This document shows positions 28,901 through 31,900 of a stretch of DNA of 64,000 bases, one piece after another. Made by a program: the position numbers. This DNA is from Escherichia coli (lineage in GTDB: Bacteria > Pseudomonadota > Gammaproteobacteria > Enterobacterales > Enterobacteriaceae). Position 1 is the stretch's first letter. The number at the start of each line of letters is the position of its first letter. The stretch lies in the NCBI RefSeq assembly GCF_003991155.1, contig NZ_CP031293.1; one strand, given 5' to 3'.

Positions 28901-31900
28901 AAAAAATGCCGCCGGAATCGGCAGAATAAACAAAATACTGACCGTCATACTGCTCAGCCCTAACACCGCGCCCATCAGTACGCCGGAGCAGGCTTCAAAG
29001 GCGGCAATTCCGGCCAGACCGCCAATCAGCATCAGCAAATAACAGTTAAAACCGCTGTTACCGAAAAGCGTTTTATAACTGGTAAGCAGGCGCGTGCGCG
29101 GTGCGTCGACCGGACGCGTTTCCGGCATCCAGCGGGCCATACTGAAGGTCACACCGGCACAAAGTACCAACAAAAAGAGATAACAGGCGCGCCAGTTCCA
29201 CATCGTATCCAGCAGACCGCCGATTAGCGGTGCGAGCAACGGACTGACAAGAATTCCCATGTTTAACAGGCTATTAGCATGGCGCAACTGTGTCCGTTCA
29301 TATAAATCGCGCGGCAAAGTACGCGCCATTACGCCGCCAACGCCGGTGCCCATCCCCTGCATCGCGCTGGCGGCAATCAATACTGTCAAACTGGAGGTCG
29401 TGACCGCGACCAGCGTTGCCAGCATAAAAATGGACATTCCGACGAGGATCACCGGTCGGCGACCCACGCGGTCGGAAATCGGGCCATAAAACAGCTGTGA
29501 GACACCGTAAGTCAGCAGATAAGCGCCCATTACGCTCTGCACCGCCCCTTCACGGACGTTGAGATCGCGCGCCATATCGGCAATAGCTGGAATATAAATG
29601 GTTTGCGCCATCTGACCGACGGCCACGAGTAATACCAACATCAATAACAAATTGACGTTTCTATGCCTTTTCATTATCACGGATGCTTTTATAAAAATAA
29701 TTAGAATAAGTCACTACGCATTCCCATAAATGCGGGAGAGGAATCTATCACATTGATAAATGTTAGCCAGATATACGCCAGGAATGGGGAATTGTTTAGC
29801 GGCAGAATATGTAAACAAAAGCGGCAATAAATGTTGCCGGGAGGGATGGTAGGGCGGATAAGATGCGTCAGCATCGCATCCGACACCAACCCACACGCTA
29901 AATATGAAAGGGGAGCGGTTACCCGCTCCCCTTTAGTGCGACTTGAATCTGAATTACTTCAGGTATTTCAGAACAGCATCAAGCAGTTGCAGTGCTGCAA
30001 CAATGAGTTTGAGGATAAGAATGGCGATATCCACCAGGCTCATACGCGTCTCCTGTGGTTCAGGAGCACTGCCAGCTGACGTACCTTTCCGCTGCCTGTT
30101 GCCAGCTGTTGTGCACGCGGTATCTCAAGGAGAAACGTTGTGCTTGTTGACATAACACAGTGTGCTCACGCGGGGTTAAGGCGCTGACGGCACCACCCGT
30201 TTCAGCCAGGACTTAGTGCGCCGGGTAACGATGCGGCCCCCGCATAACACATTGCGTACAGTGATATTATAGAAGTTTACTGTATAAATAAACAGTGATA
30301 TTTGGACAAAACGAAAACTGTGATCGATACTCAACTATGTACTAAATACGTCAAAATTCGTGCCGAAATTGCGCGTTCTGCGCGGAACACGTATACTTTC
30401 AGTGTTGACATAATACAGTGTGCTTTGCGGTTACCAGCCGCAGGCGACTGACGAAACCTCGCTCCGGCGGGGTTTTTTGTTACCTGCAATTCAGTACAAA
30501 ACGTGATCAACCCCTCAATTTTCCCTTGCTGAAAAATTTTCCATTGTCTCCCCTGTAAAGCTGTGCTTGTATAAATATTGTTAAACACAAAACCAACAAG
30601 GTCCCCAATGACTACTTCCATGCTCAACGCAAAACTACTACCAACTGCGCCATCCGCCGCAGTGGTCGTCGTGCGTGTGGTGGTGGTCGTCGGCAATGCG
30701 CCGTAGGGACTGGAACAACACACGATTCCAAAACCCCGCCGGCGCAAACCGGGCGGGGTTTTTCGTTTAAGCACCTCCCGGAAAGTCGGCCCAGAAGAAA
30801 AGGACTGGAGCATGGCAAGTTCGGGCACAACATCGACGCGTAAGCGCTTTACCGGCGCAGAATTTATCGTTCATTTCCTGGAACAGCAGGGCATTAAGAT
30901 TGTGACGGGCATTCCGGGCGGTTCTATCCTGCCTGTTTACGATGCCTTAAGCCAAAGCACGCAAATCCGCCATATTCTGGCTCGCCATGAACAGGGCGCA
31001 GGGTTTATCGCTCAGGGAATGGCGCGCACCGACGGTAAACCGGCGGTCTGTATGGCCTGTAGCGGACCGGGTGCGACTAACCTGGTGACCGCCATTGCCG
31101 ATGCGCGGCTGGATTCCATCCCGCTGATTTGCATCACCGGTCAGGTTCCTGCCTCGATGATCGGCACCGACGCCTTCCAGGAAGTGGACACCTACGGCAT
31201 CTCTATCCCCATCACCAAACACAACTATCTGGTCAGACATATCGAAGAACTCCCGCAGGTCATGAGCGATGCCTTCCGCATTGCGCAATCAGGCCGCCCT
31301 GGCCCGGTGTGGATAGACATTCCTAAAGATGTGCAAACGGCGGTTTTTGAGATTGAAGCACAGCCAGTTATGGCAGAAAAAGCCGCCGCACCCGCCTTTA
31401 GCGAAGAAAGCATTCGTGACGCAGCGGCAATGATTAACGCCGCCAAACGCCCGGTGCTTTATCTGGGCGGCGGTGTGATCAATGCGCCCGCACGGGTGCG
31501 TGAACTGGCAGAGAAAGCGCAATTACCAACTACCATGACCTTAATGGCGCTGGGCATGCTGCCAAAAGCGAATCCGCTGTCGCTGGGTATGCTGGGGATG
31601 CACGGCGTGCGCAGCACCAACTATATACTGCAGGAGGCGGATCTGCTGATTGTTCTCGGTGCGCGTTTTGATGACCGGGCGATTGGCAAAACCGAGCAGT
31701 TCTGCCCGAATGCGAAAATCATTCATGTCGATATCGACCGTGCAGAGCTGGGCAAAATCAAGCAACCGCACGTAGCGATTCAGGCGGATGTTGATGACGT
31801 GCTGGCGCAATTGATCCCGCTGGTGGAAGCGCAACCGCGTGCAGAGTGGCACCAGTTGGTGGCGGATTTGCAGCGCGAATTCCCGTGTCCAATCCCGAAA

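What the first reader, a model, noticed from the sequence alone, without database searches (positions are those of the whole stretch)
29954..30468. tisB/istR-1 type I toxin-antitoxin locus, with the pairing site visible as a 20-nt direct repeat and a TisB N2S variant
The 29-aa TisB ORF is missed by the 60-aa ORF track but is clear on manual translation. A LexA box (30280-30295) lies between the divergent units. The segment 30394-30413 is a 19/20 copy of 30146-30165, which corresponds to the expected IstR-1 pairing site roughly 100 nt upstream of the tisB start on the mRNA. Residue 2 is Ser rather than the Asn I recall for K-12.
Basis: partly seen in the sequence, partly recalled or inferred. 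Interest (0 to 1): 0.35.

Follow-up and report, generated by a model that had tools for sequence, protein, structure and literature searches.

The report
Ordinary E. coli tisB/istR-1 toxin locus
This is the well-studied E. coli tisB/istR-1 toxin-antitoxin locus in intact form, and the "Ser2 variant" of the toxin is the common, already published form, K-12's Asn2 being the minority allele.

Summary
Window 29900-30620 is the E. coli emrD–tisB–tisA–LexA box–istR-2/istR-1–ivbL interval. It is 98.9% identical to K-12 MG1655 (8 SNPs in 721 nt) and 100% identical to strain 2016C-3878.

- **Toxin and sRNA:** TisB (29954-30043, minus strand) meets the Pfam and NCBIfam TisB cutoffs. Rfam istR matches 30349-30478 at 150 bits (gathering score 45).
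- **Direct repeat:** It is real, 21/22 nt, with 0.01 matches expected by chance. The true copy is 30403-30424, not 30394-30413, which matches only 1/20.
- **Pairing:** The single C/T difference gives a G·U wobble, so the 21-nt RNA duplex is uninterrupted. It starts at the inferred IstR-1 5' end (G30404) and lies 102 nt upstream of the tisB AUG. Across 19 usable of 20 loci (Escherichia, Citrobacter, Salmonella), two duplex positions changed on both sides.
- **Ser2:** It differs from K-12 (Asn2) but is the majority allele. Of 4358 tisB-carrying complete genomes, 3161 share the window's CDS and 1001 share K-12's. All 20 other-species loci encode Ser2. N2S was published and tested in 2024 (PMC11264685).
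- **Only uncommon feature:** An A→G change at the last position of the 20-nt LexA box, found in about 7% of genomes.

The parts
29907..29934 (-). tisAB intrinsic terminator hairpin (12-bp stem, 4-nt loop), followed on the minus strand by UUUCAUAUUU
   Evidence: Perfect inverted repeat I1. The published tisAB RNA length of 359 nt (PMC2577331) puts the 3' end at about 29901 if the TSS is 30259. Differs from K-12 in the loop (29921) and just outside each end of the stem (29906, 29935).
29954..30043 (-). tisB CDS, 29 aa, MSLVDIAILILKLIVAALQLLDAVLKYLK (Ser2 allele)
   Evidence: Pfam PF13939 37.6 bits (cutoff 25), NCBIfam NF011340 69.9 bits (cutoff 53). RefSeq annotates tisB on the identical DNA.
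30049..30054 (-). tisB Shine-Dalgarno AGGAGA, predicted to be sequestered in structure
   Evidence: Position. Same hexamer as listed in PMC11264685 Table 1. Mean P(unpaired) of the SD-AUG stretch is about 0.26-0.29 in the +1, +42 and +106 folds.
30040..30153 (-). tisA ORF (37 aa). Its stop overlaps the tisB start (ATGA), and its AUG lies inside the IstR-1 target. No evidence that it is translated.
   Evidence: DNA identical to K-12. No Pfam or NCBIfam family. PMC11264685 states there is no experimental evidence of translation.
30146..30166 (-). IstR-1 target, which is the ribosome standby site in the tisAB 5' UTR (about +94 to +114 of the mRNA)
   Evidence: Direct repeat D2. Tail duplex -36.7 kcal/mol against -14.1 ± 2.3 for shuffled tails. 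Covariation. Standby mechanism from PMC6690012 and PMC4147584.
30243..30254 (-). 5'-end element of the primary (+1) tisAB mRNA, a third partial copy of the repeat core (CATAACACATTG). Predicted to pair with the 5' half of the standby site in the untranslatable +1 form.
   Evidence: Repeat family D1. MFE structure of the +1 RNA. Conserved in 17 of 20 related loci. The role is inferred.
30266..30271 (-). tisAB promoter -10 hexamer TATAAT. The TSS is inferred at about 30259.
   Evidence: Same hexamer as in PMC11264685. The TSS is inferred from spacing, from the 359-nt RNA length, and from +106 falling inside the duplex.
30278..30297 (.). LexA box TACTGTATAAATAAACAGTG (17/20 to the consensus TACTG(TA)5CAGTA). 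It overlaps the tisAB -35 region and abuts the istR-2 -35. The last base is G here and A in K-12.
   Evidence: The CTG/CAG core is conserved in all 20 related loci. LexA control of tisAB is from the literature.
30303..30331 (+). istR-2 promoter (TGGACA, 17-nt spacer, GATACT)
   Evidence: Promoter scan. The hexamers are identical to those in PMC11264685 Table 1.
30339..30478 (+). IstR-2 (about 140 nt, SOS-induced long form). The 5' end is inferred.
   Evidence: Rfam RF01400 matches 30349-30478 over model positions 1-130 of 130. The start is inferred from the -10 hexamer spacing.
30369..30397 (+). istR-1 promoter (-35 TTGCGC at 30369-30374, -10 TATACT at 30392-30397)
   Evidence: The hexamers match PMC11264685 Table 1. 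The DNA is 100% identical to K-12.
30404..30478 (+). IstR-1 antitoxin sRNA (75 nt). The 5' 21 nt (30404-30424) pair with the tisAB mRNA. These are followed by a stem-loop and a Rho-independent terminator (30452-30478).
   Evidence: Complementarity begins exactly at G30404 in the related loci. 100% identical to K-12, where the RNA has been shown experimentally.

Best explanation
This is the canonical chromosomal tisB/istR-1 type I toxin-antitoxin module of Escherichia coli, intact.

- **Repression:** LexA bound at 30278-30297 represses the leftward tisAB promoter and the rightward istR-2 promoter.
- **Induction:** After DNA damage, a roughly 359-nt tisAB mRNA is made from about 30259. This +1 form is inert, because its 5' end folds onto the standby region and the tisB ribosome-binding site is buried.
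- **Activation:** Processing to the +42 form exposes a single-stranded standby site at 30146-30166. There 30S/S1 loads and then slides about 100 nt to the tisB ribosome-binding site.
- **Antitoxin:** The constitutive 75-nt IstR-1 (30404-30478) pairs its first 21 nt with that site (20 Watson-Crick pairs plus one G·U). This blocks standby binding and triggers RNase III cleavage to the inert +106 form.
- **Toxin:** When tisAB mRNA outnumbers IstR-1, the 29-aa membrane peptide TisB is made. It depolarises the inner membrane and promotes persistence.

The Ser2 residue is the consensus and probably ancestral state, not a peculiarity of this strain.

Shown here: the sequence elements, family memberships, duplex, covariation and allele frequencies. 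Taken from K-12 experiments and transferred by 100% sequence identity of the whole 5' UTR and of istR-1: transcription, processing, standby loading, RNase III cleavage and toxicity.
For: - **Locus identity:** 98.9% identity and the same gene order as K-12 MG1655. The entire stretch from just after tisB codon 2 to the LexA box (30040-30296) and all of the istR-1 promoter and gene (30341-30482) are identical.
- **Families:** Rfam istR 150.1 bits, E = 1.5e-32, full length. TisB meets the Pfam and NCBIfam equivalog cutoffs.
- **Repeat:** 21/22 nt, and two matches were never reached in 100 shuffles.
- **Duplex energy:** The tail duplex is -36.7 kcal/mol, against -14.1 ± 2.3 for 1000 shuffled tails (minimum -25.7).
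- **Covariation:** In 20 usable sequences (the window plus 19 of the 20 related loci, 8 distinct tail/target types) from Escherichia, Citrobacter and Salmonella, 98.8% of the 21-pair cells are paired. Two positions show compensatory double changes and two show G·U-preserving single changes. Versions slid by 1-3 columns pair only 19-51%.
- **Promoters:** The hexamers and the ribosome-binding site match those tabulated for E. coli.
- **Folds:** The +1 5' end pairs with the target, and the SD is sequestered.
- **Mechanism in the literature:** PMC6690012, PMC4147584 and PMC2577331.
- **N2S:** Reported as the dominant allele and toxic, PMC11264685. My own counts are 3161 genomes against 1001.
Against: - Nothing in the sequence contradicts this reading.
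- No expression data exist for this particular strain.
- The transcription start sites are inferred from hexamer spacing and published RNA lengths, not read from data.
- RNAfold shows only a modest opening of the target from the +1 to the +42 form (mean P(unpaired) 0.37 to 0.46), so the computed folds only weakly reproduce the published structural switch.
- The LexA box differs from K-12 at its last position (30297), and the effect on repression is untested.
Confidence: 0.97

Rival explanations
1. IstR-1 works here by blocking translation of the upstream tisA ORF, with tisB translated by coupling. This would be a hok/mok/sok-like leader-peptide mechanism rather than competition for a standby site.
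For: The tisA AUG (30151-30153) lies inside the IstR-1 target. The tisA stop overlaps the tisB start as ATGA. The tisA ORF is conserved in more than 99% of E. coli loci.
Against: Published work reports no evidence that tisA is translated. It shows direct 30S/S1 binding to the single-stranded target region, displaced by IstR-1 (PMC6690012; PMC11264685). TisA has no recognised protein family. No AGGAGA-type SD was looked for or seen in front of the tisA AUG; only prints that context.
Confidence: 0.02
2. The locus is a decaying or deregulated copy in this strain. The Ser2 change and the LexA-box change would alter toxin activity or SOS control enough that it no longer behaves like the K-12 system.
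For: The LexA 20-mer ends in G instead of A. The exact 51-mer around it is found in only 268 of 3809 matching genomes. N2S was reported to be more toxic at low induction.
Against: All ORFs, promoters, the ribosome-binding site, the pairing site and the terminators are intact. Ser2 is the majority allele and the state in the other genera. The changed LexA position is the outermost one, and the CTG/CAG core is untouched. The same G occurs in E. whittamii and in Escherichia sp. E1V33. Persister survival was unchanged for N2S.
Confidence: 0.01

Closest known systems
E. coli K-12 MG1655 tisAB/istR-1/istR-2 locus (type I toxin-antitoxin; Vogel 2004 and Darfeuille 2007, as cited in PMC6690012 and PMC4147584)
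   Same: Same genomic position (emrD-ysdE | tisB-tisA-LexA-istR | ivbL-ilvB). Identical tisA, 5' UTR, standby/target site, tisB ribosome-binding site, and istR-1 promoter and RNA. Same promoter hexamers.
   Different: 8 SNPs in 721 nt: tisB codon 2 AGC (Ser) against AAC (Asn), LexA box position 20 G against A, one base in the istR-2 promoter spacer (30314), one at the inferred istR-2 5' end (30340), three in and around the tisAB terminator, and one downstream of istR (30483).
TisB-N2S, the 'consensus TisB' of Escherichia coli (PMC11264685, mSystems 2024)
   Same: The peptide sequence is identical to the window's. That paper reports it in 85% of loci. It is present in B-lineage lab strains, toxic on overproduction, and more toxic than K-12 TisB at low induction.
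   Different: Nothing at the protein level. In my counts on 5426 complete genomes, the window's exact CDS is in 3161 of 4358 tisB-carrying genomes.
Other divergently encoded SOS or 5'-UTR-targeting type I systems (dinQ/agrB, shoB/ohsC, zorO/orzO)
   Same: A small hydrophobic toxin, a long structured 5' UTR that needs processing, and a divergently transcribed sRNA with roughly 20 nt of complementarity far upstream of the ribosome-binding site. dinQ is also LexA-regulated.
   Different: Unrelated sequences and different loci. The window's elements match tisB/istR specifically.

Membership tests
TisB toxin (Pfam PF13939; NCBIfam NF011340 / TIGR04459) | The protein scores above the curated family cutoffs over its full length of about 29 aa | tested here: met
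   PF13939 37.6 bits (cutoff 25). NF011340 69.9 bits (cutoff 53). TIGR04459 61.5 bits (cutoff 38). The two NCBIfam models align residues 1-29 of 29; the Pfam match covers residues 4-26.
TisB toxin | Membrane-depolarising toxicity of the peptide | not testable with these tools
   Published for this exact sequence (tisB-N2S) in PMC11264685. Not tested here.
istR sRNA (Rfam RF01400) | Covariance-model score at or above the gathering threshold, full-length, on the strand opposite to tisB | tested here: met
   150.1 bits against gathering score 45, model positions 1-130 of 130, at 30349-30478 on the + strand.
istR sRNA (IstR-1 form) | A roughly 75-nt transcript with its own constitutive promoter inside istR-2 | not testable with these tools
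   The promoter TTGCGC-17-TATACT and the terminator are present and 100% identical to K-12. The transcript itself was not observed here.
tisB/istR-1 type I toxin-antitoxin system | About 21 nt of antisense complementarity between the IstR-1 5' end and the tisAB 5' UTR, about 100 nt upstream of the tisB ribosome-binding site | tested here: met
   30404-30424 against 30146-30166: 20 Watson-Crick pairs plus 1 G·U, 102 nt from the AUG. Supported by shuffles and covariation.
tisB/istR-1 type I toxin-antitoxin system | A LexA operator controlling tisAB, placed between the divergent units | tested here: met
   TACTGTATAAATAAACAGTG at 30278-30297 has an intact CTGT-N8-ACAG and overlaps the tisAB -35 region. 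Binding itself was not tested.
tisB/istR-1 type I toxin-antitoxin system | Conserved chromosomal context between emrD and ivbL-ilvBN | tested here: met
   The annotated K-12 and 2016C-3878 regions align across the whole interval. ivbL starts at 30609.
tisB/istR-1 type I toxin-antitoxin system | mRNA processing (+1 to +42), standby-site loading of 30S/S1, and RNase III cleavage to +106 | not testable with these tools
   Known from K-12. Transferred by 100% identity of the 5' UTR. The computed folds are only qualitatively consistent.

The most novel reading that the evidence does not exclude
The least ordinary feature is not N2S but the A→G change at the last position of the LexA operator (30297). 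About 7% of E. coli genomes that match this stretch carry it, and so do E. whittamii and Escherichia sp. E1V33. If it measurably weakens LexA binding at what, from memory, is one of the tightest SOS boxes in E. coli, then strains with this allele would have higher basal tisAB and istR-2 transcription. Combined with the more potent Ser2 toxin, that would shift the frequency of TisB-dependent persisters.
Probability: 0.1. Interest if true: 0.25.

Novelty: already known. Interest (0 to 1): 0.06.

Why it matters
It matters little beyond annotation quality. The window carries an intact copy of a textbook SOS-induced persistence module.

There are two practical lessons. Sub-60-aa ORFs and sRNAs escape a coarse ORF track. 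And K-12 is not the reference state for TisB residue 2. The Ser2 form is the natural consensus and has already been shown to be somewhat more toxic at low expression (PMC11264685). Results obtained with K-12 TisB may therefore slightly understate the toxin's potency in most wild strains.

Tried and rejected
1. **Extended duplication.** I tested whether the repeat extends well beyond 22 nt, which would mean istR-1 and the tisAB 5' UTR are old duplicates with longer pairing.
   - RNAduplex on the full RNAs gave -78 kcal/mol. It ignores intramolecular structure.
   - The only extra collinear match, AGGCG[A]CTGACG, had p of about 0.06 by shuffling.
   - That match is not conserved in Citrobacter or Salmonella IstR, although the mRNA side is invariant.
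   - I rejected it as chance.
2. **Second short repeat (D3).** GCTCACGCGGGGTT (30164-30177) resembles GCTCCGGCGGGGTT (30461-30474) at 86% over 14 nt. The second copy is simply the 3' arm of the IstR terminator. I did not pursue it.
3. **Other Rfam hits.** Weak sub-threshold matches in the area (Termite-leu on the tisAB terminator, naRNA4 on the REP element, STnc310 and P6 inside the ivbL/attenuator region) are all far below their gathering scores. I dismissed them.
4. **The look-up of encoding contigs.** I tried it for Salmonella and Citrobacter TisB variants. It failed because the protein is under the 30-aa minimum. I replaced it with a degenerate-codon DNA scan of genome contigs.
5. **Alignment with a tisB-less genome.** The global MAFFT alignment places the left flank poorly. 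It shows only roughly where homology resumes, at about window 30531.

Full report
**What is in the sequence**

Window 29700-30700 holds a 29-codon ORF on the minus strand at 29954-30043, reading MSLVDIAILILKLIVAALQLLDAVLKYLK. A 37-codon ORF at 30040-30153 (tisA) overlaps its start codon as ATGA. Further right lie a CTGT-N8-ACAG motif at 30280-30295 and a plus-strand hairpin with a U-tract ending at 30478. The ilvB leader peptide ivbL starts at 30609 (MTTSMLNAKLLPTAPSAAVVVVRVVVVVGNAP).

**The repeat**

- The repeat finder reports a 22-nt direct repeat, 30145-30166 against 30403-30424, at 21/22.
Shifting it by +10, to 30404-30423, gives 19/20.
- The pattern, allowing up to 3 mismatches, occurs only at these two places in 64 kb. 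Shuffles give 0.01 expected, and 0 of 100 shuffles gave two or more matches.
- tisAB is read leftward and istR rightward. A direct repeat in the DNA therefore means antisense complementarity between the two RNAs.
- The single difference is C at 30156 in the target against T at 30414 in IstR. In the RNA duplex this is a G·U wobble, so the helix is unbroken.

**Identity of the locus**

- Megablast of 29900-30620 against 5426 complete E. coli genomes hits 5419 of them, always on the chromosome. RefSeq annotates tisB and ivbL under the match.
- The interval is 100% identical to strain 2016C-3878 and 98.9% identical to K-12 MG1655 (8 SNPs in 721 nt, no indels). Gene order is yidF–emrD–ysdE–tisB–ivbL–ilvB.
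- Rfam's istR model (RF01400) matches 30349-30478 on the plus strand over all 130 model positions, at 150.1 bits (gathering score 45).
- TisB passes Pfam PF13939 and both NCBIfam equivalog models. TisA matches nothing.
- The promoter hexamers I located match those tabulated for E. coli tis/istR loci in PMC11264685:
  - tisAB -10 TATAAT at 30266-30271 (minus strand);
  - istR-2 TGGACA-17-GATACT at 30303-30331;
  - istR-1 TTGCGC-17-TATACT at 30369-30397;
  - tisB ribosome-binding site AGGAGA at 30049-30054.
- Spacing from TATACT puts the IstR-1 5' end at G30404. From there to the U-tract is 75 nt, the published size.
- A tisAB start at about 30259 fits three facts: the published 359-nt RNA (PMC2577331), a 3' end in the U-tract after the 29907-29934 hairpin, and the RNase III product '+106' falling inside the duplex.

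**Is the pairing real?**

- The 22-nt IstR-1 tail forms a -36.7 kcal/mol duplex with the tisAB RNA. For 1000 shuffled tails the mean is -14.1 ± 2.3, with a best value of -25.7.
- I scanned one genome per species (GTDB) with a degenerate back-translation of TisB residues 7-23. This gave 20 loci: 15 Citrobacter, 4 Escherichia (two E. coli records, E. whittamii and Escherichia sp. E1V33) and Salmonella enterica subsp. diarizonae.
- One locus (L005) is cut by a contig end. The window and the other 19 loci were aligned, giving 20 sequences and 8 distinct tail/target combinations.
- Counted on those 8 types:

| Measure | Result |
|---|---|
| Cells paired across the 21 pairs | 98.8% |
| Pairs with changes on both sides | 2 (A-U→G-C in the C. 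youngae group; U-A→C-G in Citrobacter sp. Res13) |
| Pairs with G·U-preserving single changes | 2 |
| Cells paired when the partner is slid 1-3 columns | 19-51% |

- Complementarity starts exactly at the base I infer as the IstR-1 5' end. The preceding base (30403) pairs in Escherichia but is mismatched in most Citrobacter. This agrees with the published '21 nt' (PMC4147584).
- The T at 30414 is specific to Escherichia. Citrobacter and Salmonella have C there, a G-C pair.
- Three Citrobacter loci (L008, L022, L023) carry an uncompensated A·C mismatch at duplex position 7.

**Mechanism**

The whole tisAB 5' UTR (30040-30296) and the istR-1 promoter and gene are base-for-base identical to K-12. 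The K-12 experiments therefore transfer directly.

- LexA represses tisAB.
- The +1 mRNA is inert.
- Removing 41 nt exposes a single-stranded standby site about 100 nt upstream of the sequestered tisB ribosome-binding site, where 30S/S1 loads.
- IstR-1 pairs across that site, blocks loading and directs RNase III cleavage to the inert +106 RNA (PMC6690012; PMC4147584).

My own folds agree qualitatively. In the +1 RNA, the 5' end pairs with the 5' half of the target. That 5' end includes a third partial copy of the repeat core at 30243-30254. The tisB SD-AUG stretch is mostly paired in every form. The computed opening of the target from +1 to +42 is modest (P(unpaired) 0.37 to 0.46).

**The 'N2S variant'**

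- K-12 TisB is MNLVD… and the window's is MSLVD…. The difference is one SNP at 30039, immediately outside the tisA stop codon.
- The polarity of 'variant' is reversed. Among 4358 complete genomes with tisB, 3161 have a CDS identical to the window's and 1001 have K-12's.
- Every named member I read in the 90%-identity protein cluster, apart from K-12's own sequence, has Ser2. These come from E. coli, Shigella, Citrobacter and Salmonella.
- All 20 species-representative loci encode Ser2.
[quoted passage not shown] It reports Ser2 in 85% of loci and presence in B-lineage lab strains. It also finds greater toxicity than K-12 TisB at low induction and no change in ciprofloxacin survival.
The variant is nonetheless neither rare nor new.

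**What is slightly unusual**

- The 20-nt LexA box ends in G (30297) where K-12 and most relatives have A. The exact 51-mer around it occurs in 268 of 3809 matching genomes. This fits the 93.5% conservation of the MG1655 LexA site reported in PMC11264685.
- The same G is present in E. whittamii and Escherichia sp. E1V33.
- It is the outermost operator position, and the CTG/CAG core is intact. Any effect is probably small and is untested.

**Verdict**

The finding is a correct recognition of a textbook locus, with a 10-nt slip in one coordinate pair and a truncated right boundary. It is already known in every respect, including the N2S allele.

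Noticed in passing
window 30297 (LexA box 30278-30297): The last base of the 20-nt LexA operator is G instead of the A in K-12. The exact 51-mer around it is in only 268 of 3809 matching complete E. coli genomes. The same G occurs in E. whittamii and Escherichia sp. E1V33. The effect on LexA affinity is unknown.
   Followed up: partly
window ~29840-30530; locus L003 (NZ_CP082073.1) 2333-2578: About 1068 of 5426 complete E. coli genomes have no tisB. In strain MS20659 the whole tisB/istR module is absent. About 110 nt of unrelated sequence sit between ysdE and the ivbL promoter, and homology resumes near window 30531.
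   Followed up: partly
window 30243-30254: There is a third, partial copy of the repeat core (CATAACACATTG) at +6 to +17 of the tisAB mRNA. In the predicted +1 fold this 5' end pairs with the 5' half of the standby site. It is conserved in 17 of 20 related loci but replaced in the C. youngae group (L006, L010, L020).
   Followed up: partly
L008, L022, L023 (Citrobacter sp. R56, Awk 4, NCU1), positions aligned to window 30152 / 30410: The target has G where IstR-1 keeps A, which gives an uncompensated A·C mismatch at duplex position 7. In the C. youngae group the same target change is compensated in IstR-1.
   Followed up: no
window 29845-29890: A REP-like palindromic element lies between ysdE/emrD and the tisAB terminator. 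It gives a weak, sub-threshold Rfam naRNA4 match at 29853-29885 (22 bits against gathering score 59.5). PMC2577331 mentions a single REP at this place in K-12.
   Followed up: no
window 30609-30707: The ivbL leader peptide of the ilvBN operon (MTTSMLNAKLLPTAPSAAVVVVRVVVVVGNAP), with its Val/Leu-rich attenuation run, lies immediately right of istR.
   Followed up: no
NZ_CP025318.1 (E. coli FORC_042) 30144-30221: One complete genome carries a markedly divergent tisB, 86.7% DNA identity to the window's CDS, with an overlapping 'hypothetical protein' annotation.
   Followed up: no
window 30040-30153: The tisA ORF is identical to K-12's and has no protein family. Its AUG sits inside the IstR-1 target. 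PMC11264685 notes more than 99% conservation of the ORF despite no evidence of translation.
   Followed up: partly
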